DNA of 53,618 nt, from the IMG/VR virus record IMGVR_UViG_2563366968_000008; one strand, given 5' to 3'. The DNA is from a virus (lineage: Duplodnaviria; Heunggongvirae; Uroviricota; Caudoviricetes). The translations under genes were made by a program, and so were the position numbers. The notes below the pieces were generated by a model. That model saw nothing but the letters and a program-made list of their open reading frames with translations, did no database searches and was not told the origin of the DNA. How positions within the stretch are numbered: the stretch's first letter is position 1; each line of letters starts with the position of its first letter. This document shows, one piece after another, positions 7,040 through 21,931 of this stretch.

Positions 7040-7169
7040 TTTATTTTCTCCGTAAACGCGCTACAACGCAAAAATCCCACCGCGTAACCCGTTTGCACAG
7101 GTTGCAGTGTCTTATTGCGTCAGAGGCGCTATCAGGTGGCTAATTTTCGATTTACAGGCTGGTAGGTAG

Positions 7170-7271: not shown

Positions 7272-7404
7272 TTTTAAAATCCTCTCTGTAACGCTCTCTA
7301 ACGAGCTAATCGCAAAAAGGCAAGCAAGTTAGCACCACATGCGATTTAGCTCGCCGGTGAGGTTGTTTTGTGGGTAATTTTGGATTTTTGCGGATCGTGA
7401 TTGG

Positions 7405-8457: not shown

Positions 8458-8460
8458 AGA

Positions 8461-8718
8461 TCATCCCTCCGGCAACATCACTACATAGACATCACTGAAT
8501 GCATCAAGACGACAAACAAATCCTTTATCCATTAACGCGGCGAAGGCATCATGTACCGTATGAACAGGAAGTTCACACATTGCGGCTACTTCTTTGCGTG
8601 ATGCATCATGTACCCGTCCTTTGTTATCTGCCTTTTCAGCCAGAGCCATTAAGACAAGTTTTTGAATCGGGCTATTAAGTTTTACGTTCCATGCTTTACT
8701 AATCATGTTTATACTCAT
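8461..8718 (-). CDS. Small HTH/winged-helix DNA-binding protein, first gene of leftward operon (ORF track 8461..8796; ATG 8718 preferred)
   Basis: ATG 8718 has GGAG SD 8 nt upstream; KLVLMALAEKADNKGRVHDASRKEVAAMCELPVHTV HTH-like segment. Confidence 0.45.
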   Translation of the reverse strand: MSINMISKAWNVKLNSPIQKLVLMALAEKADNKGRVHDASRKEVAAMCELPVHTVHDAFAALMDKGFVCRLDAFSDVYVVMLPEG

Positions 8719-8932
8719 CGCATTTTCTCCTATGGTTAGAGTGAACGCGCGGGCGGGCATCCCATTAGCATTAGATAGCAGTGACTGACCGCTCAACAGA
8801 TCCCGCCGTTGCGTGATATTTGTTTTTCGCTTCGCAGCGACACCGGATTTTTAAAGAGCATAAGGTAAGTGCCTTTTTGTGCCTTCCGTTATCTTTTTCC
8901 TTGTGTCTTTGCAAGTATGGCCTTACCTTGTC

Positions 8933-8993
8933 TGCAAGTTTACAAAATGGAATTTTAAGATCAAGGCTTAAAATACACGTTTTGTGACTTGCA
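8933..8993. promoter_or_regulatory. Divergent operator/promoter region with imperfect inverted repeat (TGCAAGTTTACAAAATG ... CGTTTTGTGACTTGCA)
   Basis: Arms at 8933-8949 and 8978-8993 between the divergent leftward gene and the repressor gene. Confidence 0.4.
8938..8950 (+). repeat. 13-mer GTTTACAAAATGG copy 2
   Basis: Exact copy in divergent regulatory region. Confidence 0.8.
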
Positions 8994-9023
8994 TCAAACT
9001 TTTTGAGGTTATAGGGTAGCGAC

Positions 9024-9671
9024 ATGAAAACAAAATGGTATAACTTAGCAAAGCAGCTCATGCGGGCGCAGGGCATGAGCCAGGATTCGCTCGCGGATCG
9101 TATGGGGATAACTAAAGGCGGCCTGTCACACTGGCTGAACGGTCGCCGAGAGCCAAATCTTGAAGATATTGCGCGGATTATGCGCGAGCTTGGTCGTCGG
9201 CAGTTTACTGTTACACATGATGGCATGGTCATTGATGATTCTGTTTCTAATACACTTCAGGCCGTGCCGCCGCGTGATTTAGGTAGTTACCCGGTTATTG
9301 ACTGGAAGGACACAGTAAACAATATGGATGACGCAAGGCGTTCAGCATTACGACACGTTACGACTAGCGTTATTTGTTCAGATGACAGTTACTGGCTGGT
9401 TGCCAAAGGTGAATCAATGAACGCGCCGCAGGGGTTGAGCATCCCGGCGGGGACGATGATACTTGTGGACCCGCACGCGCCAGCTATTGACGGCAAACTG
9501 GTTATAGCCCAGCTTGAGGAAGGGCAGATACCGACGTTTAAACAGTTGATTATTGATGGAGGTCAAAGGCTTTTACGTTCGCTCAATCCGCTGTATCCGC
9601 CAATCCCTATGAATCCAGAATCAAAAATTATAGGCGTGGTGGTTGATGCGAAGATCGTAAACCTGCCATAA
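9024..9671 (+). CDS. CI/LexA-like repressor (HTH_XRE + S24 peptidase domain)
   Basis: N-terminal HTH (QDSLADRMGITKGGLSHWLNGRR), C-terminal S24 peptidase-like domain with GESM motif. Confidence 0.85.
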   Translation: MKTKWYNLAKQLMRAQGMSQDSLADRMGITKGGLSHWLNGRREPNLEDIARIMRELGRRQFTVTHDGMVIDDSVSNTLQAVPPRDLGSYPVIDWKDTVNNMDDARRSALRHVTTSVICSDDSYWLVAKGESMNAPQGLSIPAGTMILVDPHAPAIDGKLVIAQLEEGQIPTFKQLIIDGGQRLLRSLNPLYPPIPMNPESKIIGVVVDAKIVNLP

Positions 9672-9676
9672 ACATT

Positions 9677-9701
9677 AGCCGCCGAATGGCGGCTTTTCTT
9701 T
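9677..9701 (+). terminator. Intrinsic terminator after repressor gene
   Basis: Hairpin AGCCGCC-GAAT-GGCGGCT followed by TTTCTTT. Confidence 0.6.
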
Positions 9702-9794
9702 GCCTGGAAAACACCAAAACGTAAACAGAAAACGTTATTTATTATTTAAATATCAATGGCATATAAAATATTTTAAAAAAGTATACAAAATGGA

Positions 9795-9823
9795 TTGACT
9801 CGATGTTTTACGGGGCGTATATT
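9795..9823 (+). promoter_or_regulatory. Sigma70-like promoter (TTGACT, 17 bp spacer, TATATT), candidate rightward early promoter
   Basis: Near-consensus -35/-10 with 17-bp spacing; 13-mer-like motif GTATACAAAATGG immediately upstream. Confidence 0.5.
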
Positions 9824-10077
9824 GCGAGTCAAAGGAAGGGCGCAGGTAACAAAAGCAACTTCCTGGCACTTTAAAAATCAGGCTTAACACCTTGTCAACC
9901 GTGGAGTAACTCCCCGATGGGGGACCGAAAGCGGCACTGATAACAAGGCGCATGGGGTGTTTAAAGCGTTACATCCCCCACGAAACCGCACGCAAGGCGA
10001 CGAGTCAGCTTGCTTGGAGTGAGCAAGGTCACGCCGGGAACGGCGATGATTGCGGGATTAGTTGAAAGATGTTAAGC

Positions 10078-10115
10078 CGCTCATTAACAATCTGGTCAGC
10101 CGCTGGAAGTGCGGC
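10078..10115 (+). promoter_or_regulatory. nut-like site: boxA-like CGCTCATTAACAA plus boxB-like hairpin GCCGC-TGGAAGT-GCGGC
   Basis: boxA resembles GCTCTTTAACAA; 5-bp stem hairpin 8 nt downstream; lies in leader upstream of the N-like gene. Confidence 0.35.
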
Positions 10116-10171
10116 AATTAACGAAGATGATTTTTTATTAAGTATCATCAAGGATATACGGAGATCAGATT

Positions 10172-10462
10172 ATGAGCGTTACAATTATATATGGTAAATG
10201 TGATAGCAAAATGAATGCCAGGGAACGCAGAAGGATAAAAAGAGAAAACGAAAGAAAATCATCACCTGCAATCAATAAAACAGACAATGTGGATAAAGCT
10301 ATTCGATTTGCAAACGAGGAAAGATGCAAACCAAATAGCATTAAAGAACGTCGCAAAGGATCAGTAAAATGGTATACGGAAAATGAAAGCGGCAGCTACT
10401 ACCACGCAACGCAACCACGCCATTTAGGGGAAAAACCCCTGGATAAAGTCCGCTACCATTAA
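10172..10462 (+). CDS. N-like transcription antiterminator candidate (arginine-rich motif)
   Basis: 96 aa basic protein; NARERRRIKRENERK resembles the arginine-rich RNA-binding motif of lambdoid N proteins; first gene after the promoter/nut-like leader. Confidence 0.4.
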   Translation: MSVTIIYGKCDSKMNARERRRIKRENERKSSPAINKTDNVDKAIRFANEERCKPNSIKERRKGSVKWYTENESGSYYHATQPRHLGEKPLDKVRYH

Positions 10463-10492
10463 TACAAAATGTAAACATCCGGAGATGACATT

Positions 10493-10615
10493 ATGGTTAT
10501 TCAGGCGCTTCAATTCAAACTGGCAGTAGCGGAAATGCTTCACGATGCCGAAATGTGGAGCGCCGCGAATAAAGCCTTATACATAGTGTTAACAGCACGG
10601 GAGATTAAATGGTGA
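10493..10615 (+). CDS. Micro-ORF (40 aa) translationally coupled to erf-like gene
   Basis: ATG with GGAG SD at 8 nt; stop overlaps downstream start. Confidence 0.3.
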   Translation: MVIQALQFKLAVAEMLHDAEMWSAANKALYIVLTAREIKW

Positions 10616-11253
10616 AAACAGAGTTACATAAAAAGCTATGGACGATTCAGCAAACGCTGAACGCGCCGAAAAATCAGCGTAATAATTTTGGTGGATATAA
10701 TTACAGGTCGGCGGAGGATATTTTAGAGGCGGTTAAACCACTGCTTCAAAATATCACGCTGACTGTTAGTGATGAAATTGTCCTGATCGGCAATCGCTAT
10801 TATGTGAAAGCAACGGCGACGCTAAGCGACGGTGAAGACGTAATAGCGGTAACTGCTTATGCCAGGGAGGAAGAAAACAAGAAGGGTATGGACGCCAGCC
10901 AGCTAACAGGAGCAACATCAAGTTACGCGCGTAAATATGCTTTGAACGGTTTATTCTGTATAGATGATGCTCGCGATCCTGATACTGATGCTTACGCGAA
11001 GCAGACAGGCCAGCAGCCGCGACAACAGAAAAACCCACCAAAACAACAACCGCAGCAGAAGAAAGCGCCGCCAAATCCTGATGAAGTATTAGCACGTTTC
11101 TGTGATGCAGCAGCGAAAGCGCAGGACGCTAACAAGCTGCGTGAAATATTTGGCAAATGCTGGAAATTACTACCGGAAGGATCGGAACATCGAATCAAGG
11201 CAAAAGATGTTTATGACATCCGGGTCGCAGAGCTTAACGGGGAGATGGGTTAA
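10609..11253 (+). CDS. ERF-family single-strand annealing protein candidate
   Basis: 214 aa; FGGYNYRSAEDILEAVKP segment and Q/P-rich linker; sits immediately upstream of ssb. Confidence 0.5.
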   Translation: MVKTELHKKLWTIQQTLNAPKNQRNNFGGYNYRSAEDILEAVKPLLQNITLTVSDEIVLIGNRYYVKATATLSDGEDVIAVTAYAREEENKKGMDASQLTGATSSYARKYALNGLFCIDDARDPDTDAYAKQTGQQPRQQKNPPKQQPQQKKAPPNPDEVLARFCDAAAKAQDANKLREIFGKCWKLLPEGSEHRIKAKDVYDIRVAELNGEMG

Positions 11254-11672
11254 TGAGTTTGAATTCAATTACGCTGGGCGGGAATATCGGAAACGACATG
11301 GAAGTTCGCTACACGCAAAACGGTAAAGCGATTGGTAGTTTTCCGTTAGCTGTAACGAATGGCTACGGTGATAACAAGCGGACAATGTGGATCACTTGCC
11401 TGGTATTTGGTGAGCGTGCGGAAAAATTAGCGCCACATATCCGCAAGGGTGGAAAAATAGTGGTAAGCGGTCGCCTGGATGTTCGGCAATATGACCGGAA
11501 CGACGGCACGAAGGGGACTGCGGTAGAAGTGGCGGTTAATGAATTTGAATTCATGAATGTTAACCAACAAGGCCAGCAGCAAGGACAGCAGCAGAAAGCG
11601 CCGCCGCAGCAGCAGAATAATAACGGGAATAATCCGCCTCCGATGGACTTCGACGACGATATTCCTTTTTAG
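11253..11672 (+). CDS. ssb: Single-stranded DNA-binding protein
   Basis: OB-fold region, Gln/Gly-rich linker and acidic tail DFDDDIPF. Confidence 0.85.
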   Translation: MSLNSITLGGNIGNDMEVRYTQNGKAIGSFPLAVTNGYGDNKRTMWITCLVFGERAEKLAPHIRKGGKIVVSGRLDVRQYDRNDGTKGTAVEVAVNEFEFMNVNQQGQQQGQQQKAPPQQQNNNGNNPPPMDFDDDIPF

Positions 11673-11688
11673 AATCAATGTGTTAGCG

Positions 11689-11967
11689 ATGAGTGATTAT
11701 CTAAAACCGCCACCGCAACCACGAACAAAAGAGCAAGTATTAAAAGAAGCCCGCGATCAAATCGATCGCGGGCTTTTTTTATGCGGCACGGCAGCGGATC
11801 GAATGGCGAAAAGATTTAGTGACCTGTACGCGAAGCAAATCTGGTTTGACAACTGGCGAGCGAGTTCTTACCCGCTACAGAAAACTGATGATATGCAGTG
11901 GCCTGAATATGTTGATCCACGAATGCGCAAATATCGCGGGCGTATGGGCAAGGTTATTAACGATTAA
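11689..11967 (+). CDS. Hypothetical protein (92 aa)
   Basis: ATG in frame within ORF 11557..11967; follows ssb. Confidence 0.4.
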   Translation: MSDYLKPPPQPRTKEQVLKEARDQIDRGLFLCGTAADRMAKRFSDLYAKQIWFDNWRASSYPLQKTDDMQWPEYVDPRMRKYRGRMGKVIND

Positions 11968-11979
11968 TGAGGTATTACC

Positions 11980-12231
11980 ATGACAGCTACAACATTAAGC
12001 GAAAATAACGGGCGCGGTTTTCAGGGGACTGCGGAAACCTCAGACGATGGTGATGTATTTGTCGAATTCGGTGGCGGTAACTATGAATTCGAAACGTCGG
12101 CGGGCTGGCACGATAAATGGCCTTTCCCGACGCGCAAGGAATTAAGCGAACGTAAATCATTTGGCGAAGATGCCGAACGGCTGGCTAATAACAAATGGCT
12201 TGATAAGTTCATTGCGGAGGGTGGCAAATGA
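11980..12231 (+). CDS. Hypothetical protein (83 aa)
   Basis: ATG with GAGGT SD. Confidence 0.5.
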   Translation: MTATTLSENNGRGFQGTAETSDDGDVFVEFGGGNYEFETSAGWHDKWPFPTRKELSERKSFGEDAERLANNKWLDKFIAEGGK

Positions 12232-12335
12232 AAAAGATTGCAATGTTATCCGCCGCCGTTGCTGTGGCGGCTGTTTACCTTAGTGCGTCACTCTATATCA
12301 CTGTGGCGATTGTTAAGCTGATTACTGACATGTGA
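12228..12335 (+). CDS. Micro-ORF encoding 35-aa hydrophobic peptide
   Basis: ATGA overlap with upstream stop; single TM-like segment; not in ORF track. Confidence 0.35.
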   Translation: MKKIAMLSAAVAVAAVYLSASLYITVAIVKLITDM

Positions 12336-12342
12336 GGTTTAT

Positions 12343-12459
12343 ATGCGAGTCGACAAAAATACTGTCAAGGCTGTTTTCTGTGTGGTCGCTTTCGTCTTCA
12401 TGGTGGTAATAGCTGGCGCGACTGCGGCAATTATTAGCTATATCGGCGGGGTGATGTGA
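12343..12459 (+). CDS. Micro-ORF encoding 38-aa hydrophobic peptide
   Basis: ATG; stop overlaps next gene start; single TM-like segment. Confidence 0.35.
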   Translation: MRVDKNTVKAVFCVVAFVFMVVIAGATAAIISYIGGVM

Positions 12460-12731
12460 TGCCATTCATGAATATCAAAACGGGTGATCTGGTCGTGCTC
12501 CCGGAATACCGTAAAGACCCTGGTCTGGTTGTGCTGAATAAGACATATAACGATCTTGAGCGTCCGATCCTGGTTAAATATCTGGACGGAACAATTATAG
12601 AGCCGCGCTTCTTTGACAAGATCGAACTGAAGGCCCGTAACGTTCGCGTTAAGCCGTTCCGGGCTTATGTTGAAGACCACTGGCGGAAATTGTTCGCCGG
12701 ACTGAATGGGATGTTCGGCGTATGGCTATAA
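12456..12731 (+). CDS. Hypothetical protein
   Basis: ORF with GTG/ATG start overlapping upstream stop. Confidence 0.45.
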   Translation: MMPFMNIKTGDLVVLPEYRKDPGLVVLNKTYNDLERPILVKYLDGTIIEPRFFDKIELKARNVRVKPFRAYVEDHWRKLFAGLNGMFGVWL

Positions 12732-12913
12732 AATTGGTAAAAGTTAAAGATTTAAAAGGCGGCGAAAAGATCCGTACGTGGTATGGGTATAAATTTATCA
12801 TAGCTGCCTTTTCTTTTGGGCCTGGTGGTCAGGTAACATTATTTGACGAGGAAGATGATGAGGTGGGTCAATGGCATCTTGAACAATATGTTGAGGTGTT
12901 AAATGAAAATTAA
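12722..12913 (+). CDS. Hypothetical protein (63 aa)
   Basis: ATG start, overlapping operon neighbours. Confidence 0.4.
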   Translation: MAIKLVKVKDLKGGEKIRTWYGYKFIIAAFSFGPGGQVTLFDEEDDEVGQWHLEQYVEVLNEN

Positions 12914-13235
12914 ATTCCATAAAGCATATGATAGCGAAACAAACAAGCTATCACTATTTATCGAATTCGAACGCCGGATCGTGGTTGTGCCCTGGGCGCG
13001 GCGCTTCAATGACGCTGGCGGACGTAGACAATTCGCGGTCGATATGCTGTTACGCGGCTGCGGCCTTATGCGTCCGCTATCTGATTTAAAACGAATGATG
13101 CCGGGATCGTTCGGTCAGATTGATGAAATAGAAATAAGCCCGGAAGAACTGAAACGGGAGCGTGATTTATTCCTTTCAAGCGAAGGAAACCCGTTTAATT
13201 CAGAAACTGAAATGAAATGGCATCACCCACTATAA
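12903..13235 (+). CDS. Hypothetical protein (110 aa)
   Basis: ATG start overlapping upstream stop. Confidence 0.45.
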   Translation: MKIKFHKAYDSETNKLSLFIEFERRIVVVPWARRFNDAGGRRQFAVDMLLRGCGLMRPLSDLKRMMPGSFGQIDEIEISPEELKRERDLFLSSEGNPFNSETEMKWHHPL

Positions 13236-13248
13236 AAGGATAAATATC

Positions 13249-13869
13249 ATGAACGACATCAAAACAGCTTACTCTCTCGGTAATGAAGGTATGTTGATCA
13301 CTCGCTATACAGATGATGCAAACTTTCACGAAGTGGAAATTAAAGATTATCACGAAGTATTGAAAGATATGGAAGCTGGCGCGTATGACGCTGATTTGAA
13401 TCTGGCGCTACAGGTTGTTGATATTGTGATGGGTGCGTCAATCCGCGATTACGTGTCTTTAAGTATGGAAGAAAAAACATCGGTAGCGCGTTATGTATTC
13501 TCTCTTACTTTTGTGAAGCGCATGGAGGAAGAATTCGGACGCGTACCAGTGCCGGAAGAGGTTGATCCGCTCGCGTTCGGAAGTGCTGTCATTTTCCCGT
13601 TGAACAAGGAACAGCTTGGTAGTGTTTCACTGCATTCTATGCGCGTCCTGATGAAAAATATCTTTGAGGTTAAGATGTTGCAGAAATGCATTGAGGAAGG
13701 CCACAAAGAGGAAGAAGTAAAAGCGCTCATGCCATTGTTTTACGGTGAAATGGTTGGCAATGATATGCGTGCAAATGATTTCGGCGTACAGGCGGCTATC
13801 GCTGTGCTTAATTACGCACGGAAAAACGCACAGCCGACGCCTGAACAGGGAAAACGTGTACTGCATTAA
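13249..13869 (+). CDS. Hypothetical protein (206 aa)
   Basis: Long ORF with ATG; no motif recognised. Confidence 0.55.
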   Translation: MNDIKTAYSLGNEGMLITRYTDDANFHEVEIKDYHEVLKDMEAGAYDADLNLALQVVDIVMGASIRDYVSLSMEEKTSVARYVFSLTFVKRMEEEFGRVPVPEEVDPLAFGSAVIFPLNKEQLGSVSLHSMRVLMKNIFEVKMLQKCIEEGHKEEEVKALMPLFYGEMVGNDMRANDFGVQAAIAVLNYARKNAQPTPEQGKRVLH

Positions 13870-13968
13870 CCGAGTAATTCCGATCACATAAATATACATT
13901 TTGTATTGTGATTGTATATCCGTTTTGTAAGCCGAAATCAAAAGGTTTACGGTGCGGAGGAAGCAAAA

Positions 13969-14187
13969 ATGGAACGCGAATTGATGCTTTATTGCGTAGA
14001 AGGTGGCGTAGGTCACGATGCCTACGTCGCCGGGAAAGACTATCCAGCCGATGAAGTGCTTTCTAATATGCACTTCAGAGAAAATGAAAGCCAGGTGTCT
14101 GTGTGGAAACGGTGTATTGATGGTATTGAGGTTGTAAGTATCGAACGGTATTTAGGCACGTTTGATTACGGTGTTATTGAGGCTTAA
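13969..14187 (+). CDS. Hypothetical protein (72 aa)
   Basis: ATG with GAGGAAG SD, in frame within ORF 13912..14187. Confidence 0.4.
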   Translation: MERELMLYCVEGGVGHDAYVAGKDYPADEVLSNMHFRENESQVSVWKRCIDGIEVVSIERYLGTFDYGVIEA

Positions 14188-14285
14188 TTATGGACGATAC
14201 ATTGTTTTATATGTGCTGTTTCTGGGGTTTTATTGCCTTATGCCTGTTTATCAGGTGGTTTATTGAATACCATATGAGGTAATGT

Positions 14286-14480
14286 ATGGAACAAGAAACT
14301 GATTATCGAATACCTGATAGCCTAAAATTAGTTGGCATTGGTTTCGGGTGTAGATTTGTATCTGACGCAAAAGGAGCGATTTATTTAATACGTCTTATTG
14401 ATGGCGTTCAACATATAAGGAGATTAGGAATTTACATCAAAGCATTCAGAAGAGGTTATTTAAAAACTCATGAAATTTAA
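14286..14480 (+). CDS. Hypothetical protein (64 aa)
   Basis: ATG start; operon context. Confidence 0.4.
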   Translation: MEQETDYRIPDSLKLVGIGFGCRFVSDAKGAIYLIRLIDGVQHIRRLGIYIKAFRRGYLKTHEI

Positions 14481-14673
14481 ACATTACATGGAATGGAAAA
14501 TTCCAGAAGCAGCAACAAAGGCAGCGCCAGAAAATTTTTCTGGCGTTTATTTTTATATGGATGGCAAATGGTATTTCGGCAGCAGGCCGGATCACTACTA
14601 TCAAGAAATATGCAAGCCTCACGTATGGGATATTAAAGAGCGCGTGAAAGGCGGGGTAATTGAGGACGTTTAA
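14470..14673 (+). CDS. Hypothetical protein (67 aa)
   Basis: ATG start overlapping upstream stop. Confidence 0.4.
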   Translation: MKFKHYMEWKIPEAATKAAPENFSGVYFYMDGKWYFGSRPDHYYQEICKPHVWDIKERVKGGVIEDV

Positions 14674-14674
14674 A

Positions 14675-14911
14675 ATGCTTAAGAGCTTTTTTAACTGGTT
14701 GGGGGCGTGGCTTTTGGCTACGCTTTTTGTTTTCCTGGCGGCCCTGACTGTTATCGGTGTTATTATGCTGGGGGCTATGTTTATTACGTGGTCGCTTCCT
14801 GAATTTAACGACATTGGGAATATTCTTTTTGCAGCCCGCGCTTTATTGGCTGTTAGCGCATTCATTGGTTTTTGCTGGACTGCCGCGCCGGATTGGACTG
14901 ACACATGGTGA
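14675..14911 (+). CDS. Small membrane protein (two hydrophobic segments)
   Basis: ATG with GAGGA SD; in frame within ORF 14660..14911. Confidence 0.4.
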   Translation: MLKSFFNWLGAWLLATLFVFLAALTVIGVIMLGAMFITWSLPEFNDIGNILFAARALLAVSAFIGFCWTAAPDWTDTW

Positions 14912-14915
14912 TCCT

Positions 14916-15149
14916 ATGGCCTTATTCAATATGTCAGAGCCGCAATTTAACGCCGTAAAGACTGCCGCCCGCGCCGCGCTTTCGGCCTGCAAAGCGGAGG
15001 TAGAGAAGAACGGCTACAGCGATAAAGCCACGCGGCTGATACTCGACAAGCATTATCGCAAGGTCGCCCCGCTAATCAGCATTGAGCGTTTTGTGTGGTT
15101 GGTGGGGTATCTGAATAACCGCTGGGGGACGGAGCAGGATTATTTCTAA
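14916..15149 (+). CDS. Hypothetical protein (77 aa)
   Basis: ATG with GGTGA SD, in frame within ORF 14757..15149. Confidence 0.4.
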   Translation: MALFNMSEPQFNAVKTAARAALSACKAEVEKNGYSDKATRLILDKHYRKVAPLISIERFVWLVGYLNNRWGTEQDYF

Positions 15150-15159
15150 GGGGGACGCA

Positions 15160-15699
15160 ATGAAAAATGATTACGGCGGCAGTCATACGCCGAAAGAAAT
15201 AAAAGACCTATGGCAGACGCCGAAACCTGTTTTTAGAGGAATGGATCGGGAATTCGAATTCGTCGCGGACGTGGCGGCAAACAAGGCAAATGCATTAGTT
15301 CCGCGATATATAACCGAAGAAATGAACACGCTTAATTACCCGTGGGGAGCGGTGGCGATGCCTGGTGAATATGTCTGGATGAATCCACCATATTCTAATC
15401 CGGGACCATTCGTTGATAAGGCGGCGTTTGAACACCACCGAAATCATATTGGCTGTGTAATGTTATTGCCAGCCGACACTTCTGTTAGTTGGTTTATGAA
15501 CGGCGTGGAGACGGCAAATGAATGCCGATTAATCACGCGCGGGCGGCTGGCGTTTATTAATGCCGCGACGGGTAAACCAGCAAGCGGAAACAATAAGGGG
15601 AGCTTGTTCTTGATCTGGCATCCACGGTGCAGACATGAATGTATTTTCACGCAGATAACACGTAAAGAGCTATATGCAAGAGGTGCAGATAATGACTAA
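15160..15699 (+). CDS. Phage DNA N6-adenine methyltransferase (Dam-like)
   Basis: WQTPKPVF, NPPYS (DPPY-type catalytic motif) and FEFVADVAANK segments typical of phage Dam family. Confidence 0.7.
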   Translation: MKNDYGGSHTPKEIKDLWQTPKPVFRGMDREFEFVADVAANKANALVPRYITEEMNTLNYPWGAVAMPGEYVWMNPPYSNPGPFVDKAAFEHHRNHIGCVMLLPADTSVSWFMNGVETANECRLITRGRLAFINAATGKPASGNNKGSLFLIWHPRCRHECIFTQITRKELYARGADND

Positions 15700-16024
15700 G
15701 GCAGCAGATTTATTGAGACTTGCAGCGGAAACCATAGAGCAAAGAGGTAAACAAAACGGCTACGACAAAAAAGAGGAAAAATCAGCGCCAAAAATAGCCA
15801 CTATTTACAACGCTAAGAAGGGAGCAGATTTAACCCCGCTTGATGTATGGGATCTGCTAATTTGTCTCAAGGAGGCGCGTTTAGAGGCCATTTTAAGCAA
15901 TAAATCAGATCCGACAGACACGCTAATTGATTTGATTAGCTATAACGCGCTAAAAGCGGAGCAAATATTAACGGAGCGGGAGGAAGCCCAAAGAAAGAAA
16001 CGGGCTGTTTTGATATACCGTTAA
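15692..16024 (+). CDS. Hypothetical protein (110 aa)
   Basis: ATG with GAGGTG SD overlapping Dam stop. Confidence 0.45.
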   Translation: MTKAADLLRLAAETIEQRGKQNGYDKKEEKSAPKIATIYNAKKGADLTPLDVWDLLICLKEARLEAILSNKSDPTDTLIDLISYNALKAEQILTEREEAQRKKRAVLIYR

Positions 16025-16162
16025 ATTGCGGCTGTAAGAATGCCTCAATACCAGGCGACTTAATCGCCAGCAGCAAGGTAACGCTAAATAGTGTCCTTGC
16101 AAACAGGCTTGATGGTAAGTGTGATAACGAATCACTACTACGCGCGGCGGGGTATCATAAAA

Positions 16163-16666
16163 ATGGAAAGGGTGACAATTGACAGGTTATTGGCCTGCAT
16201 TTATGTCGCCGTTTTCGTGATCATTAACCTTATTGTTAACCACTGCGGCCCGTGGGTAATTCCGATCACCACGGTAGCCGCCGTGTGCGTCAATATGATG
16301 ATCCGTGACTTCCTGTTATATGACGGCGGCCTGAAATGGTCGGCTACAACATGCGCCGCCGCTGGCGCAATCACGGTGCTGATAAACTACGATGCCGGGA
16401 TGGTGGCGATCGCGTCATTCGTCGCGGTTGTTTCCGGTGCGCTTATTTCTGGCGGTGTTTACCGGATTTTACCTGGCGATTTCGATTCAAAACGCTGGCC
16501 TGCGAATATAGCGTCCGCCATTGGTGATGCGTTAATTTTTCCCACGCTATCGTTTATGGCATTTATGCCGGAAATATCAGCTATGCAATTCATCTCAAAA
16601 ATGGCGGCTGTAACGGTGATCACTATCATCATTCGTCGCTATTTTACGTTCGAGGGTAGGAAATGA
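16163..16666 (+). CDS. Polytopic membrane protein (start uncertain; ORF opens at 16091)
   Basis: 4-5 hydrophobic segments; stop overlaps start of downstream methyltransferase-like gene (ATGA). Confidence 0.5.
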   Translation: MERVTIDRLLACIYVAVFVIINLIVNHCGPWVIPITTVAAVCVNMMIRDFLLYDGGLKWSATTCAAAGAITVLINYDAGMVAIASFVAVVSGALISGGVYRILPGDFDSKRWPANIASAIGDALIFPTLSFMAFMPEISAMQFISKMAAVTVITIIIRRYFTFEGRK

Positions 16667-17427
16667 GTGGGCTTAGAAATTGGGTGGTGTGGTCGCTGTA
16701 CGACGGCAGCGGGTACGCCGTTAAAGATTGGGCCGACGCTGGCTATAAGTGTTATTGTTTCAATTATGACGGCGCTAATCATGGCGATTATGAAGGCGTC
16801 AAGATCATTCATCCTAACATTGAATATGTCAACGTATGGATTGACAGCCATTTCCTGGTAATGTTCTCCCCTGAATTGTCTGTTTATCCAGATCCTGACA
16901 TTATCCTGGGCTTTCCTCCGTGCGACGATCTTGCGGTGTCCGGCGCTCGTTGGTTTTCAAGCAAGCGTGAAAAAGATCCTTACTTCCAGCAGAAGGCGGC
17001 ATACAACGCAAAACTGGTAGAAACGCTTGCTGACATGTACCACGTCCCGTGGATGGTGGAAAACCCGGTTGGAGCACTGTCAACGTTATGGCGTAAGCCG
17101 GATTTCATTTTTAATCCGTGCGCTTACGGTGGCTACCTGCCGGAAGATGATAAGCATCCAGCTTTCCCGGAATACATCGCCGACCGCGACGCCTACACGA
17201 AGAAAACTTGTATCTGGTGCGGCAACGGATTTAAACAGCCGCTATTTCGGCCTGTACCAATGCCTGATGAGTGGGAAGATAGTAAGCAGCACGCGAAGTT
17301 AGGCGGGAAGTCGAAGCGCACTAAGATGATCCGCTCACTCACGCCGCGAGGATTCGCCCGTGCTGTATTCCTGGCTAATGACCGGGCAATCACGCGGACT
17401 ACTCTTAACCGCGTTTTACCGGATTGA
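16663..17427 (+). CDS. DNA C5-cytosine methyltransferase-like protein (divergent, short)
   Basis: Motif I-like SLYDGSGY, motif IV-like GFPPCDDLAVSGA (PC with D replacing Q), motif VI-like VENPVGAL; 254 aa lacks an obvious target-recognition domain. Confidence 0.5.
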   Translation: MSGLRNWVVWSLYDGSGYAVKDWADAGYKCYCFNYDGANHGDYEGVKIIHPNIEYVNVWIDSHFLVMFSPELSVYPDPDIILGFPPCDDLAVSGARWFSSKREKDPYFQQKAAYNAKLVETLADMYHVPWMVENPVGALSTLWRKPDFIFNPCAYGGYLPEDDKHPAFPEYIADRDAYTKKTCIWCGNGFKQPLFRPVPMPDEWEDSKQHAKLGGKSKRTKMIRSLTPRGFARAVFLANDRAITRTTLNRVLPD

Positions 17428-17428
17428 T

Positions 17429-17441
17429 GTTTACAAAATGG
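17429..17441 (+). repeat. 13-mer GTTTACAAAATGG copy 3
   Basis: Exact copy 2 bp after methyltransferase-like gene stop. Confidence 0.8.
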
Positions 17442-17587
17442 CGTCATTGTGTGATGTGGATCACATAATGGCGCTTTATTGTTTGTTCGCATGTATCCGT
17501 TTTGTATACTTCAAACAAACAAAATGCTCTTTAAAAATCCGGTAACGCTGAAATGCGTAAAAATCACCTGAAAAAGGAGAGAGCATT

Positions 17588-17764
17588 ATGTCTTTTGAGA
17601 ATTACCAATGGCATGACGACTATGAACGGGAAAGTGTCATGCGTGCAATGTGCAGTGTATGCAGCACGAAGAAGGGAGAATGTAACGAGTGCAACGAATG
17701 CGTAGATCGCTTGCTAAGGGCTGGACACGCCGAAAGGCTGAACGAAACAGAGAATCAAGAATAA
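17588..17764 (+). CDS. NinF-like small Cys-rich protein (58 aa), not in ORF track
   Basis: AAGGAG SD 8 nt upstream; YERESVMRAMCSVCS...CNECNEC pattern resembles lambda NinF. Confidence 0.45.
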   Translation: MSFENYQWHDDYERESVMRAMCSVCSTKKGECNECNECVDRLLRAGHAERLNETENQE

Positions 17765-17778
17765 TCGGGGTGGTTTTT

Positions 17779-18384
17779 ATGCAAAACCCTAAGAAACCAA
17801 TAAGACGCCGTTGCAAATGCTGCGGCGTTTTTTTTGAGCCTAAATATCACAACCAGACGTGGTGCAGTGAAGAATGTCTGGAAGAACTGAAATTTGATCA
17901 GCTATGCCGCGACCGTGAAAAGGCAATGAAGGCGATGGAACGGAAGAAACGCCGTGACAGCCAGCGCGAGGAACGAAACCGGAAGCGGAAACAGTTAAAT
18001 CCGCGCAGCTACTGGATCAAGCAAGTTCAAAATGTATTTAACGCCTATATCCGCGAACGTGACGCGCGGTTGCCGTGCATATCCTGCGGGACTTACTACG
18101 GTGAGCAATGCGGGTGGGATGCCGGACACTATAGGACGGTTGCCGCTGCCGGACACCTTCGCTTTAACGAAGATAATTGCCATAAACAATGTAGACACTG
18201 CAACCAGACGTTAGACGGCAACATCGGAGGTTATCGCCCGGCACTGATTAGAAAAATCGGCCTCGCCAGGGTGGTAGCACTGGAGAACAACAACGATACG
18301 CACAAATGGACGATCGCAGAATGTAAGGAGCTAATAAACATCTACCAGGCGAAATTGGACGCCTTAAGGAGAAAGGCAGCATGA
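17779..18384 (+). CDS. ninG: NinG/Rap-like recombination protein (ORF opens at 17689; ATG 17779 preferred)
   Basis: RRCKCCGVFFEP...CSEEC zinc-binding N-terminus and basic C-terminal region typical of NinG. Confidence 0.6.
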   Translation: MQNPKKPIRRRCKCCGVFFEPKYHNQTWCSEECLEELKFDQLCRDREKAMKAMERKKRRDSQREERNRKRKQLNPRSYWIKQVQNVFNAYIRERDARLPCISCGTYYGEQCGWDAGHYRTVAAAGHLRFNEDNCHKQCRHCNQTLDGNIGGYRPALIRKIGLARVVALENNNDTHKWTIAECKELINIYQAKLDALRRKAA

Positions 18385-18782
18385 ATGAATATACTTTTAG
18401 CCTGCCTTACCCGCCATCGAATAACCGCTATTACCGACATTCGCGTGGTTTTCACTATATCAGCAAGGTAGGGAAAGAATACCGTGAACGAGTAAGAGAC
18501 ATCATCGAATTATTAAATTTAAACATCAACATATCTTGCCGACTGGCAATCATCATTTATGCCGCACCGCCGGATAACAGGACCAGGGATCTCGATAATA
18601 TCCCAAAATGCCTATTTGACAGCCTTACATATTCCGAATTCTGGAAAGACGACGGTCAGATCGATTCTATAAAAATTGTTCGCTGCCGTAAGGTAAAAGG
18701 CGGGCGATTGTTTATCAAGGTGCGCGAACGCGGAGACCTGCTACCTGATATTAACGAATACGCAACTAATATGTGGTGGTAA
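18381..18782 (+). CDS. rusA: RusA-like Holliday junction resolvase
   Basis: LPYPPSNNRYYRH...RDLDNIPKCLFDSL...DDGQI motifs typical of RusA. Confidence 0.75.
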   Translation: MNEYTFSLPYPPSNNRYYRHSRGFHYISKVGKEYRERVRDIIELLNLNINISCRLAIIIYAAPPDNRTRDLDNIPKCLFDSLTYSEFWKDDGQIDSIKIVRCRKVKGGRLFIKVRERGDLLPDINEYATNMWW

Positions 18783-18966
18783 CAATGAAAAACGAAATTA
18801 AAGATCTGCAAATAGACATTCAGCGCGACGAGCGTGATTTAGCCACAGTTCGACAAATTCAGGCTTTTCACATGTGAGAATTACTTGCACTGAAAGAGTT
18901 TGAGAGAAAGCTGGTGCAATCAATTTCTGATCGTAAACGCCTTATTGCTCGTTACGGGGGCAAATA

Positions 18967-19695
18967 ATGAATTTAGAATCCATTCTAAAATTCCACTTTC
19001 CCAAATCACCGCGATTGTCAGACGAAAGCAGGGGAACATCACCTGATGCACTTAATACGACGGATGCGCTTACCGCCGCTGGTATGGCGCAATCGCGCGT
19101 AGCGCTTGGTTACAGCGCTTTTTTGGGGAAGATGGAACTATCGCAAACTGAAAAACACAGGGCCGTAGTTTTGCTTACAGAGCGTTTAAGAGCTATGGCA
19201 AAAGATTACGAATACGTTATGGAGTTGGACGATGAGCGACGCAATGATCTTATTATTCTTGTTGCCGTTTTCGCGTTTCGGGATTACTGCCAGAGTGCGG
19301 CGACCGAAAAGGTTTGCCCTAAATGCGGTGGAAACGGGCTTTTACCGCATCCATGCTGCGAATACACATCAACGGTTTGTTCGCGGTGCAACGGGAAAGG
19401 CTACGTTAAAAACCATTGCCAGCGGTGCAAAGGGCGCGGCGAGATACCGGATAAAGCAGCCAGTGAAGCAGCGGAAATGCCAGTTTTCAAAACGTGCCAG
19501 CATTGTGGCGGGCGCGGGTACTCGCGTTTCCCGGTAGATCTTGTCCGACAGGCGGTTAATCAGCTTGTTTTCCCGGTAAGCCGATCAACATGGTGGAAGA
19601 AATACAGGGTTTTCTATGAGGACGCCATAGCGGAGCTATTTAAAGAAGAAGCCCGCGCGGAAAGCGAAATTAAACGAGTGACACGGGGTGAATAA
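18967..19695 (+). CDS. Q-like late antiterminator candidate with DnaJ-type zinc finger
   Basis: Four CxxCxGxG repeats (CPKCGGNG, CSRCNGKG, CQRCKGRG, CQHCGGRG); position after ninG/rusA and before lysis genes matches lambdoid Q. Confidence 0.45.
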   Translation: MNLESILKFHFPKSPRLSDESRGTSPDALNTTDALTAAGMAQSRVALGYSAFLGKMELSQTEKHRAVVLLTERLRAMAKDYEYVMELDDERRNDLIILVAVFAFRDYCQSAATEKVCPKCGGNGLLPHPCCEYTSTVCSRCNGKGYVKNHCQRCKGRGEIPDKAASEAAEMPVFKTCQHCGGRGYSRFPVDLVRQAVNQLVFPVSRSTWWKKYRVFYEDAIAELFKEEARAESEIKRVTRGE

Positions 19696-19880
19696 TGACA
19701 AGTTAGAAATAAACGATCAGTTTGCCGTTATATTGTTCGAAGATAAAACTGGCGGCGCATGGTGTAAGAGAGTCACTGGTGCAGAAGCGCGTTTAATATT
19801 AGGTATGGCAAGCGCGTTAAACGAAGGAGAATTACCCGCCATCCCTGTTAAACCAGTCCACATCTATAAACGGGGCGACG

Positions 19881-20231
19881 ATGATGAAAATAATTAATAT
19901 TGGGTGGCTGTATTGCGAAAACTGCGACGACGACGGCATGGTTGTTAAAACTGAAAAAGGCTGCGGCTTCATACTGTATCAAGATGATAAATTTGTTTGC
20001 CCGCGATGCGGTGGTCGTGGTGAGATAGAGATCGTTGATGATATTGCTACCGCACCCAAGCCATCGCGCATTGTCCTTGATGAAAAAATAAAAATTCATC
20101 CTGATTTATTACAGCAAATTATCGATCACGTATCGGCAGCCGCAATCTATAGCGATAACAATTATCAGCGTGAAATGAACGTCAAACGTGCGCTTAATCA
20201 GTATTTTAAGGGTGACGATGATGAAGCCTAA
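19881..20231 (+). CDS. Small zinc-ribbon protein (116 aa)
   Basis: CENC...CPRCGGRG motifs; ATG start. Confidence 0.45.
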   Translation: MMKIINIGWLYCENCDDDGMVVKTEKGCGFILYQDDKFVCPRCGGRGEIEIVDDIATAPKPSRIVLDEKIKIHPDLLQQIIDHVSAAAIYSDNNYQREMNVKRALNQYFKGDDDEA

Positions 20232-20493
20232 ATTAAAAGAACATGTTTACCGCCAGTTGGTTAACGAGTTGGCTGACACGGCCCGCCATTACGCCGGAAC
20301 ACAACAGCTACGCGGTCGGCTATCTTCGGTTGTTAACCGTTATATTGATGCTGGATGCCATCGCAAAGGTGAAATTACGATGGACGAGGCAATCAAGCGC
20401 CGGACGGCTGAATGGTCAGTGAGTAATACCGGATTAACCGGATACATTGAAGGCTATAACGACTGTTTACAGGATCATGGCGATGGCAAGTAA
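20218..20493 (+). CDS. Hypothetical protein (about 91 aa)
   Basis: ATG with AAGGGTGA SD, in frame within ORF 20188..20493. Confidence 0.4.
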   Translation: MMKPKLKEHVYRQLVNELADTARHYAGTQQLRGRLSSVVNRYIDAGCHRKGEITMDEAIKRRTAEWSVSNTGLTGYIEGYNDCLQDHGDGK

Positions 20494-20736
20494 AGATCTA
20501 CATTTAAACCTGAAAGGAGAATACTTTTACGCCATCCGGGCGGGAAAGAAGGTGGAGGAATACCGACTTTATAATGACTATTGGCGTAAACGCCTGAAAG
20601 GGCGGGAATATGAACGCCTGATAATCAAGCTGGGGTATCCAGCCAGCCACGAAACACACCGGATCATAAACCTGCCTTATTTCGGGTATGAAGTGAAAAC
20701 TATCACACATCCATTGTTCGGCCCTGATCCTGTTAA

Positions 20737-21931
<1,195 letters not shown>

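What the first reader, a model, noticed from the sequence alone, without database searches (positions are those of the whole stretch)
15160..17427. DNA-modification module: Dam-like methyltransferase plus membrane protein coupled to a divergent, short C5-methyltransferase-like protein
A Dam-family adenine methyltransferase is followed, after one small gene, by a polytopic membrane protein whose stop overlaps the start of a 254-aa C5-MTase-like protein. That protein keeps motif I, the catalytic PC dipeptide (with D replacing Q) and an ENV-like motif but has no obvious target-recognition domain, so it may be an orphan anti-restriction methylase or have altered chemistry.
Basis: partly seen in the sequence, partly recalled or inferred. 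Interest (0 to 1): 0.5.

Follow-up and report, generated by a model that had tools for sequence, protein, structure and literature searches.

The report
Phage Dam, Dcm-like methylase, orphan transporter
This stretch of an E. coli prophage carries two ordinary stand-alone phage DNA methylases, one of them a compact cytosine methylase family already shown to make 5-methylcytosine, and between them a small membrane transporter that in other phages sits next to a 7-deazaguanine-inserting enzyme that this phage lacks.

Summary
In detail: four co-oriented genes lie at 15160-17427, and the membrane-protein stop overlaps the 254-aa start (ATGA).

- **Source.** The window is an mEp021-like (mEpimmI) temperate coliphage or prophage.
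- **Gene 1.** A phage-type N6-adenine methyltransferase (PF05869, TIGR01712).
- **The membrane protein.** It is a divergent short VUT/YhhQ-type protein (phrog_4899). In 34 of 38 other contexts this gene directly abuts a DpdA-like 7-deazaguanine transglycosylase gene. In the mEp021 lineage a Dcm-like gene adjoins it instead, and I found no DpdA in the window.
- **Coupling.** It is positional, not functional. Among 47 related viral contigs, the Dcm-like gene is broken in 8 of 45 evaluable copies by at least five kinds of lesion. The transporter is intact in 46 and has a dN/dS of 0.04.

Verdict: new members of known kinds. The orphan transporter is the only open question.

The parts
15160..15699 (+). 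Orphan phage-type N6-adenine DNA methyltransferase ('Dam', 179 aa)
   Evidence: PF05869 at E 2.4e-52. TIGR01712 phage_N6A_met scores 142.7 bits against a cut-off of 97. phrog_111 'DNA methyltransferase'. dN/dS 0.062 against mEp021.
15382..15393 (+). NPPY catalytic motif of the Dam (residues 75-78, 'WMNPPYSNP')
   Evidence: Read directly from the translation. This is the (D/N)PP(Y/F) motif IV of amino-methyltransferases (established knowledge).
15692..16024 (+). DUF6378 small protein (110 aa from the ATG at 15692; the ORF opens at 15674). Function unknown.
   Evidence: PF19905 at 32.2 bits against a cut-off of 27.1. phrog_9871, unknown function. No match in the PDB by sequence. Present between Dam and the transporter in 46 of the 47 mEp021-like viral contigs.
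16163..16666 (+). Short VUT/YhhQ(QPTR)-like polytopic membrane protein (167 aa), without its usual DpdA partner
   Evidence: phrog_4899 at E 2.9e-46. 31-35% identical to phage proteins annotated as VUT family. A profile search returns about 154-aa relatives that carry PF02592. AF2 model pLDDT 87.9, all-helical. dN/dS 0.038. Intact in 46 of 47 related contigs.
16663..16666 (+). ATGA overlap: the transporter's stop codon overlaps the start codon of the Dcm-like gene
   Evidence: Sequence read. The same 4-base overlap joins VUT genes to DpdA-like genes in other phages.
16663..17427 (+). Compact Dcm-like DNA cytosine-C5 methyltransferase (254 aa), orphan
16696..16713 (+). Motif I-like loop 'LYDGSG' (residues 12-17), the presumed SAM-binding site
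   Evidence: L12 is nearly invariant, but the glycines are not strictly conserved in the family. Relatives P0012 and P0069 match PF00145 profile positions 4-94 above the gathering score.
16921..16923 (+). Codon of Cys87, the catalytic nucleophile in 'FPPCDD' (motif IV)
   Evidence: Invariant in 61 homologues. Corresponds to C82 of the K42 Dcm, which was part of the inactivating mutant.
17059..17061 (+). Codon of Glu133 in 'ENP' (ENV-like motif VI)
   Evidence: Invariant. Corresponds to E128 of the K42 Dcm.
17200..17205 (+). Codons of Lys180 and Lys181 ('DAYTKKTC')
   Evidence: K180 is nearly invariant. The pair corresponds to K175 and K176, which were mutated in the inactive K42 Dcm.
17440..17485 (+). 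Terminator-like hairpin plus T-run that closes the four-gene block
   Evidence: 16-bp stem followed by a T-rich tail. It lies at the position of TERM_4 in the mEp021 record. The mEpimmI paper places nutR2 downstream of its putative cytosine-methyltransferase gene.

Best explanation
This is the distal part of the delayed-early, rightward operon of an mEp021-like (mEpimmI) temperate siphophage integrated in E. coli. It carries four tightly packed accessory genes that are neighbours by position rather than one machine.

1. **Phage-type Dam** (PF05869). An orphan methyltransferase.
2. **Compact Dcm-like C5-cytosine methyltransferase** (phrog_757). Also an orphan. It is a DNMT3-like catalytic core with only about 35 residues where classical enzymes carry a target-recognition domain. 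Both enzymes are inferred to methylate replicating phage DNA, and incidentally host DNA, during lytic growth. That would blunt restriction. It also exposes the phage to methylation-sensing defences such as retron Ec86/Eco1.
3. **DUF6378 protein**. Function unknown.
4. **Short VUT/QPTR-like transporter**. Its relatives are almost always adjacent to a DpdA-like guanine transglycosylase, where they presumably import preQ0 or preQ1-type bases for 7-deazaguanine DNA modification. In the mEp021 lineage a Dcm-like gene adjoins it instead of a DpdA gene. That may reflect replacement of an ancestral DpdA, which is inference. The transporter has since persisted alone under strong purifying selection, so it still does something. 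Most likely it imports a queuosine precursor or a related base, without any DNA-insertion step.

**Shown here:** family memberships, folds, conserved catalytic residues, gene order, independent loss and selection.
**Shown by others for a 60% homologue:** 5mC formation.
**Inferred:** the target sequences, the anti-restriction role and the transporter's substrate.
For: **Source.** The region is 85-91% identical to phages mEp021, mEp010/013/044/515/554 and MagusPhagus, and matches prophages in 35 of 5426 complete E. coli genomes.

**Dam.** PF05869 at E 2e-52; TIGR01712 above its cut-off.

**Dcm-like protein**
- phrog_757 at E 1e-87.
- 1516 phage records and 1278 clusters at 50% identity hold relatives.
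- C87, E133 and P135 are invariant.
- 60% identity over the full length to the Bas06 Dcm.
- The K42 Dcm makes 5mC and triggers retron Ec86, and a later paper restates this.

**Transporter**
- phrog_4899.
- Relatives carry PF02592.
- The alignment with E. coli YhhQ is collinear.

**The usual partner is DpdA**
- 7 of 7 annotated or assembled contexts.
- 27 of 31 distant IMG/VR loci.
- No DpdA was found in the window by tblastn or by a PHROG scan of the large ORFs of unknown function.

**Independence of the two genes**
- The Dcm family is about 70 times more widespread in phage records than the VUT family (1516 against 21).
- KarlJaspers has the Dcm and a Dam but no VUT.
- Phage Phc has VUT-DpdA, with its Dcm-like gene about 4 kb away on the other strand.
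- Among mEp021-like contigs the Dcm-like gene is deleted, replaced by an HNH endonuclease, internally deleted or frameshifted in 8 of 45, while VUT stays intact. In one contig VUT is deleted and the Dcm-like gene is kept.

**Selection.** dN/dS is 0.038 for VUT and 0.079 for Dcm.

**Operon end.** A terminator-like hairpin follows the Dcm-like gene.
Against: - No methylation or transport data exist for this phage.
- The window's own 254-aa protein gets no Pfam or NCBIfam hit, and only 2 of 61 family members reach PF00145 at E<0.01. Assignment therefore rests on fold, motifs and one characterised homologue at 60% identity.
- The K42 work reached me only as a preprint. Its CCWGG specificity is inferred, not mapped.
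- The window's transporter itself does not hit PF02592. hhalign against E. coli YhhQ gives E 0.006 but a probability of only 6%. Fold searches gave only weak matches, with TM about 0.55 to a phage 'vitamin uptake transporter' and to ECF S-components.
- The ATGA overlap and the conserved order Dam-DUF6378-VUT-Dcm in a relative only 52-66% identical (L006) are what a functional unit would also show.
- The mEp021-clade transporter has replaced 19 of 49 otherwise conserved positions. Its substrate may therefore not be a queuosine precursor.
Confidence: 0.8

Rival explanations
1. The transporter and the C5-methyltransferase-like protein form a functional pair. The membrane protein imports a cofactor or base, and the methylase-like enzyme installs it on DNA. 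This would be chemistry other than methyl transfer, as with carboxymethyl-SAM-dependent C5 enzymes.
For: - ATGA translational overlap.
- The order VUT then Dcm-like is conserved in the divergent relative L006 and in 43 of 47 related contigs.
- The residue after the catalytic Cys is D or T, not Q.
Against: - The same protein family works as a 5mC methylase in a phage that has no VUT gene.
- 1516 phage records carry the family against 21 that carry the transporter.
- The transporter is kept intact where the methylase gene is deleted, replaced or frameshifted, and the reverse also occurs.
- The same overlap architecture joins VUT to DpdA-like genes elsewhere. The overlap is therefore a property of the transporter's slot, not of this pair.
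Confidence: 0.05
2. The locus is a cryptic 7-deazaguanine DNA-modification system. The transporter imports preQ0 or preQ1, and an unrecognised transglycosylase, in the phage or the host, inserts it into phage DNA.
For: - Relatives of the transporter are nearly always adjacent to a DpdA-like gene.
- DpdA subfamilies are very divergent and were found only stepwise.
- The transporter is under strong purifying selection.
Against: - tblastn with DpdA-like proteins from two phages finds nothing in the window at E<0.05.
- None of the 47 related contigs has a DpdA-like match within 3 kb of the transporter.
- None of the 10 large ORFs scanned against PHROGs matched a transglycosylase family: 9 matched other families and one matched none.
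- RefSeq annotation of the near-identical prophage lists none.
- Published work treats DpdA as the signature of such systems.
Confidence: 0.05
3. The transporter gene is a functionless relic of a lost VUT-DpdA pair and is merely carried along.
For: - It lacks its usual partner.
- It is highly diverged from other short VUT proteins: 32% identity against 60% among the others, with 19 of 49 conserved columns changed.
- It has no Pfam hit of its own.
Against: - dN/dS of 0.038 at dS 0.46 against mEp021 is the lowest of six neighbouring genes.
- The ORF is intact in 46 of 47 contigs, while the adjacent methylase gene decays in 8.
- 17 family-invariant residues are retained.
- The gene is still present in L006 at 52% identity.
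Confidence: 0.05
4. The two methyltransferases are the modification halves of restriction-modification systems.
For: Methyltransferases are often part of such systems (general knowledge).
Against: - No nuclease gene adjoins either one. The neighbours are small early genes, DUF6378, the transporter, NinF-like, NinG, RusA and Q.
- Both families are typical stand-alone phage methylases.
Confidence: 0.02

Closest known systems
Dcm-like C5-cytosine methyltransferase of Escherichia phage KarlJaspers (Bas06) and its relative K42, the trigger of retron Ec86/Eco1
   Same: Same PHROG family, phrog_757. 60% identity over the whole length at E 1e-101. The same catalytic Cys, the same ENP Glu and the same KK pair. 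The same compact size (236 against 254 aa). An orphan sitting among early genes.
   Different: The host phage is a virulent Drexlerviridae member rather than a temperate mEp021-like phage. There is no adjacent transporter. The window's protein has 'PPCDD' where Bas06 and most of the family have 'PPCTD', and it carries a disordered C-terminal tail of about 15 residues. Target sequence is unknown for both; CCWGG is only inferred for K42.
DNMT3A/DNMT3B catalytic domain and classical bacterial C5-methyltransferases (M.HhaI, E. coli Dcm; Pfam PF00145)
   Different: Only 13-16% identity. No PF00145 hit for this protein and no PDB hit by sequence or profile. The segment where the target-recognition domain would sit is about 35 residues, roughly 188-223, partly at lower confidence. 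That makes it even more reduced than DNMT3.
YhhQ/QPTR queuosine-precursor transporters (COG1738, Pfam PF02592 Vut_1)
   Same: Polytopic all-helical membrane protein. Relatives 30-40% identical carry PF02592. Collinear alignment with E. coli YhhQ includes the D..(I/V)R, A.AS and D..FP..F motifs.
   Different: 167 aa against 221 aa. No PF02592 or TIGR00697 hit of its own. The hhalign probability is low. Several otherwise conserved polar positions are changed: N36T, D44N, S111R. No transport assay exists for any member of the short phage subfamily, as far as I found.
VUT-DpdA gene pairs of 7-deazaguanine phages and prophages (for example Pectobacterium phage PEAT2 gp18-gp19, Drexlerviridae Phleasolo, Phc and LHE71; yhhQ-dpdA in the phage CAjan cluster)
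   Same: The same transporter family (phrog_4899). Where the DpdA-like gene lies downstream, the architecture is also the same: a roughly 250-aa DNA-modification gene starts at or within the transporter's stop.
   Different: The downstream gene here is a C5-methyltransferase, not a phrog_887 transglycosylase. The two are unrelated by BLASTP. No DpdA and no preQ0 synthesis genes were found in the window.
Phage-type Dam methyltransferases (Pfam PF05869, TIGR01712)
   Same: Full-length match above both curated cut-offs, with an NPPY motif. 41% identical to the Bas06 Dam-like enzyme.
   Different: This is a different family from the host's E. coli Dam. GATC specificity is assumed from the family name and was not tested.

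Membership tests
DNA cytosine-C5 methyltransferase (functional class) | Class I SAM-methyltransferase (Rossmann) fold of the C5 type | tested here: met
DNA cytosine-C5 methyltransferase (functional class) | Catalytic Pro-Cys dipeptide (motif IV) and the ENV glutamate (motif VI) | tested here: met
   'FPPCDD' with C87 and 'VENPV' with E133. C87, E133 and P135 are invariant in 61 homologues.
DNA cytosine-C5 methyltransferase (functional class) | Motif I FxGxG SAM-binding loop | tested here: inconclusive
   'LYDGSG' is present here and in the active Bas06/K42-type enzyme ('LFDGSG'). However, the glycines are not conserved across the family. No cofactor docking was done.
DNA cytosine-C5 methyltransferase (functional class) | Variable target-recognition domain between motifs VIII and IX | tested here: not met
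   Only about 35 residues (about 188-223) separate the 'DAYTKKTCIW' strand from the 'RSLTPRGFA' helix, with no separate domain in the model. The characterised K42/Bas06 enzyme shares this trait, so it does not preclude activity.
DNA cytosine-C5 methyltransferase (functional class) | Formation of 5-methylcytosine in DNA | not testable with these tools
   Shown by LC-MS for the Dcm of K42, a phage whose genome is 95.4% identical to that of KarlJaspers. The KarlJaspers Dcm is 60% identical to this protein.
Pfam PF00145 DNA_methylase | Score at or above the gathering threshold | tested here: not met
   No hit at E<=0.1. Only 2 of 61 aligned homologues hit at E<0.01. P0012 and P0069 pass over profile positions 4-94 only.
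PHROG phrog_757 (phage compact 'DNA methyltransferase', includes the Bas06 Dcm) | Full-length profile match | tested here: met
   E 1.2e-87 over residues 5-247. The Bas06 Dcm matches the same family at E 6e-86.
VUT / QPTR (YhhQ) transporter family, Pfam PF02592 | Score at or above the Pfam gathering threshold | tested here: not met
   No hit for the window's protein. P0129 (54% identical) scores 20.8 bits against a cut-off of 27.2, and the PEAT2 homologue passes at 38.1 bits. About 110 of the 120 listed profile-search relatives carry PF02592.
VUT / QPTR (YhhQ) transporter family, Pfam PF02592 | Polytopic helical membrane protein collinear with YhhQ | tested here: inconclusive
   The model is all-helical, pLDDT 87.9. 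hhalign against E. coli YhhQ aligns 142 columns at E 0.006, but the probability is 6%. Foldseek gives TM 0.53-0.57 to phage VUT-like models and 0.54 to the ECF S-component RibU, with E>0.01. The afdb50 library was unavailable.
VUT / QPTR (YhhQ) transporter family, Pfam PF02592 | Transport of preQ0, preQ1 or queuine | not testable with these tools
   Known for E. coli and Chlamydia QPTR from the literature. Nothing is known for the short phage subfamily.
Phage 7-deazaguanine DNA-modification system | A DpdA-family guanine transglycosylase (the signature protein) | tested here: not met
   No tblastn match in the window at E<0.05 with DpdA-like proteins from two phages. No match within 3 kb in 47 related contigs with five such queries. 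No transglycosylase match among the 10 large ORFs scanned against PHROGs.
Phage 7-deazaguanine DNA-modification system | [quoted passage not shown] | tested here: inconclusive
   Only the transporter-like gene is present. No que genes appear in the annotation of the near-identical prophage.
Phage N6-adenine methyltransferase (PF05869 / TIGR01712) | Profile scores above the curated cut-offs, plus the NPPY motif | tested here: met
   177.5 bits against 28.1, and 142.7 bits against 97.05. 'NPPY' at residues 75-78.
Restriction-modification system | A cognate restriction endonuclease gene next to the methyltransferase | tested here: not met
   The flanking genes are small early proteins, DUF6378, the transporter, NinF-like, NinG, RusA and Q.

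The most novel reading that the evidence does not exclude
After losing its DpdA partner, the mEp021-clade transporter acquired a DpdA-independent job. It might import a different base or vitamin, or import queuosine precursors to reset host tRNA-Q status during lytic growth. That would be the first phage VUT/QPTR protein to act outside 7-deazaguanine DNA modification. Three observations are compatible with this:
- Very strong purifying selection (dN/dS 0.04).
- Retention where the neighbouring methylase gene decays.
- Clade-wide replacement of 19 of 49 otherwise conserved positions, including N36T, D44N and S111R.
Probability: 0.25. Interest if true: 0.5.

Novelty: new member of a known kind. 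Interest (0 to 1): 0.3.

Why it matters
**The methylases.** This result prevents a mis-filing. The short, TRD-poor 'C5-methyltransferase-like' protein is not new chemistry. It belongs to one of the commonest phage methylase families, and that family already has an experimentally characterised member and a known cost, because it triggers retron Ec86/Eco1.

**Decay of the Dcm-like gene.** The gene is inactivated repeatedly in natural mEp021-like prophages: 8 of 45 copies, with at least five kinds of lesion. This fits a cost of cytosine methylation to the phage or lysogen and could be followed up.

**The transporter.** Published work treats DpdA as the signature of phage 7-deazaguanine systems and notes YhhQ homologues only in passing. 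Here a gut-prevalent coliphage lineage keeps a strongly conserved YhhQ-like gene with no DpdA. That is a small, testable question about what such transporters do for phages.

Tried and rejected
**Sequence searches of solved structures**
- The 254-aa protein and the membrane protein as single sequences gave nothing at E<=10.
- A 61-sequence profile of the methylase family gave only chance hits at E>0.1.
- The DUF6378 protein gave only a chance hit at E 0.95.

**Is the 254-aa protein a disguised DpdA?** I compared it by BLASTP with two DpdA-like proteins and found no similarity. Rejected.

**Pfam count across the methylase alignment.** Only 2 of 61 members hit PF00145. Pfam is therefore not a useful test for this family.

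**Fold searches for the transporter.**
- afdb50 was not available.
- BFVD and PDB gave only weak matches.

**Other dead ends**
- The MMBR review on 7-deazaguanines (PMC10966956) is not held.
- I first assumed the window equals the E. coli M15 prophage. It is 99.8% identical only over 7056-20738 and diverges elsewhere. I used the window's own ORFs after that.
- The promoter scan found no + strand sigma-70-like site ahead of the transporter, and the number of sites did not exceed shuffles. I make no claim of a separate promoter.
- GATC and CCWGG are neither avoided nor enriched, with observed/expected 0.90-0.96. This is uninformative about specificity.
- No tRNA genes are in the window.
Full report
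**What is there.** On the + strand the window carries four tightly packed ORFs:
- 15160-15699, 179 aa.
- 15674/15692-16024, about 110 aa.
- 16091/16163-16666, 167 aa from the ATG.
- 16663-17427, 254 aa.

The last two share the bases ATGA at 16663-16666. A terminator-like hairpin follows at 17440-17475.

**Where it comes from.**
- The 2.6-kb region is 85-91% identical to Escherichia phages MagusPhagus, mEp010, mEp013, mEp044, mEp515, mEp554 and mEp021.
- It matches prophages in 35 of 5426 complete E. coli genomes, and is 100% identical to one in strain M15.
- The whole window is a mosaic relative of that prophage rather than a copy: 99.8% identity over 7056-20738 and 80-92% elsewhere.
- These phages form the Nus-dependent, non-lambdoid 'mEpimmI' group described in 2025. 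That paper places a nutR2 site just downstream of the putative cytosine-methyltransferase gene.
- The four genes are thus the distal end of the antiterminated early operon.

**Gene 1, the Dam.** It matches Pfam PF05869 at E 2.4e-52 and the NCBIfam equivalog TIGR01712 'phage N-6-adenine-methyltransferase' at 142.7 bits against a cut-off of 97. It carries an NPPY motif. This is the phage-type Dam family, not the family of the host's Dam. GATC specificity is assumed from the family and was not tested.

**Gene 4, the 254-aa protein.**
- It has no Pfam, NCBIfam or PDB sequence hit of its own.
- It matches PHROG phrog_757 'DNA methyltransferase' at E 1.2e-87.
- The family is very large: 2367 clusters at 90% identity in the word-indexed search, 1278 representatives at 50% identity and 1516 phage GenBank records. 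Those records span Drexlerviridae, Dhillonvirus, Jersey-like, rV5-like, 9NA-like and other phages.
- In an alignment of 61 diverse members, C87 (in FPPC[T/D]D), G94, E133 and P135 (ENP), P152, Y178, W185 and P193 are invariant. K180, R224, P228 and G230 are nearly so.
- AlphaFold2 gives a confident model (pLDDT 91, pTM 0.89).
- Only about 35 residues lie where classical enzymes have a target-recognition domain.

**The decisive link is in the literature.**
- A 2023 preprint isolated escape mutants of phage K42, whose genome is 95.4% identical to that of KarlJaspers/Bas06, on retron Ec86. All the mutants mapped to a 711-bp 'dcm' gene.
- Expressing that Dcm raised 5mC on msDNA in LC-MS.
- A C82A/E128A/K175A/K176A mutant was inactive.
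- A 2026 paper restates that a phage cytosine methyltransferase activates retron Eco1.
- I fetched KarlJaspers (accession; annotation). Its Dcm-like protein is 60% identical to the window's protein over the full length (E 1e-101) and falls in the same PHROG.
- With the five-residue offset, the mutated residues are C87, E133, K180 and K181 here, and all are conserved.

The protein is thus a member of an experimentally supported 5mC methyltransferase family. 'Altered chemistry' has no support. The target sequence stays open, because CCWGG for K42 was inferred from the host Dcm motif and from msDNA mutants, not mapped.

**Gene 3, the membrane protein.**
- It matches phrog_4899 at E 2.9e-46.
- It is 31-35% identical to phage proteins annotated 'VUT family protein'.
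- The PEAT2 homologue passes Pfam Vut_1, at 38.1 bits against 27.2.
- A profile of 11 sequences retrieves 763 relatives. Nearly all listed are about 154-157 aa long and carry PF02592.
- The window's own protein gets no Pfam hit.
- hhalign against E. coli YhhQ gives a collinear 142-column alignment at E 0.006, but with low probability.
- The AF2 model is all-helical with pLDDT 87.9.
- It resembles a phage 'vitamin uptake transporter' model and ECF S-components only weakly.

I file it as a divergent member of a short, phage-borne VUT/QPTR subfamily. The fold and substrate are inferred.

**What normally sits next to that transporter.** In Phleasolo, PEAT2, RCIP0319, Phc, LHE71, an E. coli prophage and a Salmonella prophage, the next gene begins at or within the transporter's stop and encodes a 250-276-aa protein.
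- All seven of these proteins are homologous to one another.
- The four I scanned match phrog_887 'queuine tRNA-ribosyltransferase', that is, they are DpdA-like.

I then scanned IMG/VR with the transporter alignment and classified the neighbours by local tblastn.
- Of the 31 distant loci, 27 have a DpdA-like gene directly adjacent: 7 downstream and 20 upstream.
- None of the 31 has a Dcm-like gene.
- All 47 mEp021-like loci have Dam-DUF6378-transporter, and none has a DpdA-like gene.

The window itself has no DpdA by tblastn, and none of the 10 large ORFs I scanned against PHROGs matched a transglycosylase family. A divergent relative, L006, at 52-66% protein identity, keeps the order Dam-DUF6378-VUT-Dcm-NinG-RusA-Q. 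In this lineage, therefore, a Dcm-like gene adjoins the transporter where a DpdA-like gene usually does.

**Is the overlap a functional coupling? The evidence says no.**
- The methylase family is about 70 times more common in phage records than the transporter family.
- KarlJaspers has the Dcm and a Dam but no transporter.
- Phc has VUT-DpdA, with its Dcm-like gene about 4 kb away on the other strand.
- Within the mEp021 lineage, the Dcm-like gene is damaged in 8 of 45 evaluable contigs while the transporter stays intact at 95-98% identity:
  - cleanly deleted in L051;
  - replaced by an HNH_3 endonuclease, leaving a C-terminal stub, in L026 and L038;
  - internally deleted in L047, L049 and L052;
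  - frameshifted in L056 and L023.
- In L061 the transporter is deleted and the Dcm-like gene is kept.
- dN/dS against mEp021 is 0.038 for the transporter, the lowest of six neighbouring genes. It is 0.079 for the Dcm-like gene and 0.062 for the Dam.

The ATGA overlap is the ordinary tight packing of this operon. Dam and DUF6378 overlap too, as do NinG and RusA.

**What the orphan transporter does is open.** Published work notes that some phages encode YhhQ homologues 'with no correlation to any group', that yhhQ is dispensable for preQ0 modification in phage CAjan, and that DpdA is the signature of 7-deazaguanine DNA. Three facts describe the situation here:
- The gene is strongly conserved without a DpdA.
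- The mEp021 clade is only 32% identical to other short VUT proteins, which are 60% identical among themselves.
- The clade has replaced 19 of 49 otherwise conserved positions, including N36T, D44N and S111R.

This fits either continued import of a queuosine precursor for a non-DNA purpose or a change of substrate. It does not fit a decaying relic.

**Verdict.**
- Both methylases and the transporter are new members of known kinds.
- The region is not a coupled module.
- The modest points of interest are the DpdA-less, strongly conserved transporter and the recurrent natural inactivation of the Dcm-like gene.

Noticed in passing
window 20739-21931 (transposase ORF 20883-21899, - strand): An insertion of about 1.2 kb, absent from the otherwise 99% identical E. 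coli M15 prophage, carries a 338-aa transposase (phrog_3598, E 1e-174). Its size and ORF length look IS5-like (from memory). It sits among the small genes downstream of Q.
   Followed up: partly
L026 3501-4028 and L038 (IMG/VR relatives), equivalent to window 16667-17341: In two related viral contigs the Dcm-like gene is replaced by a 175-aa HNH_3 endonuclease gene (PF13392, E 9e-18). That gene starts at the same ATGA overlap with the transporter and leaves a 27-51-aa C-terminal stub of the methylase. It looks like a homing-endonuclease invasion.
   Followed up: partly
L023, L047, L049, L051, L052, L056 (IMG/VR relatives), equivalent to window 16663-17427: The Dcm-like gene is repeatedly inactivated in natural mEp021-like phages by clean deletion, internal deletion of about 330 bp, or frameshifts, while the flanking genes stay intact. 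This may reflect a cost of cytosine methylation, such as retron Eco1 or 5mC-dependent restriction. That idea is untested.
   Followed up: partly
L061, equivalent to window 15268-16417: One related contig has a deletion running from inside the Dam gene to inside the transporter gene. It removes DUF6378 and the N-terminal half of the transporter but keeps the Dcm-like gene.
   Followed up: no
L070, L071, L072 (IMG/VR, VUT about 31% identical): Three distant short-VUT loci show no DpdA-like or Dcm-like neighbour within the DNA held (0.9-3 kb on each side). They may be further DpdA-less contexts, or they may use an undetected DpdA subfamily.
   Followed up: no
L062, L066, L068 (IMG/VR): In some prophage-like contigs a PF05869-type Dam (47-55% identical to the window's) lies about 0.1-1.6 kb downstream of a VUT-DpdA pair. 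Dam, VUT and a second DNA-modification gene therefore cluster in other lineages too.
   Followed up: no
window 15692-16024: The DUF6378 protein always sits between Dam and the transporter in this lineage. Two of its PHROG matches are labelled 'phosphofructokinase' (phrog_474, phrog_1167), which looks like a doubtful annotation. It has no PDB relative by sequence, and its function is unknown.
   Followed up: partly
window 1412-2068 (- strand): A 218-aa ORF next to the integrase has no PHROG match at E<=0.001. It could be a moron or a defence cargo gene at the prophage end.
   Followed up: no
window 17588-17764: A 58-aa Cys-rich ORF (CxxC...CxxCxxC) lies between the terminator and NinG. The corresponding gene is annotated 'putative NinF' in mEp021.
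   Followed up: no
whole window: GGCC is under-represented (134 observed against 199 expected from a maximal-order Markov estimate, ratio 0.67). GATC, CCWGG, GCGC and CCGG are near expectation (0.90-0.96).
   Followed up: no
window 6323-7039 (- strand): The window carries an Ant-like anti-repressor (phrog_63, E 2e-47) at about the position where the M15 prophage is annotated with a DUF559 protein. This is an example of the mosaicism between these near-identical prophages.
   Followed up: no
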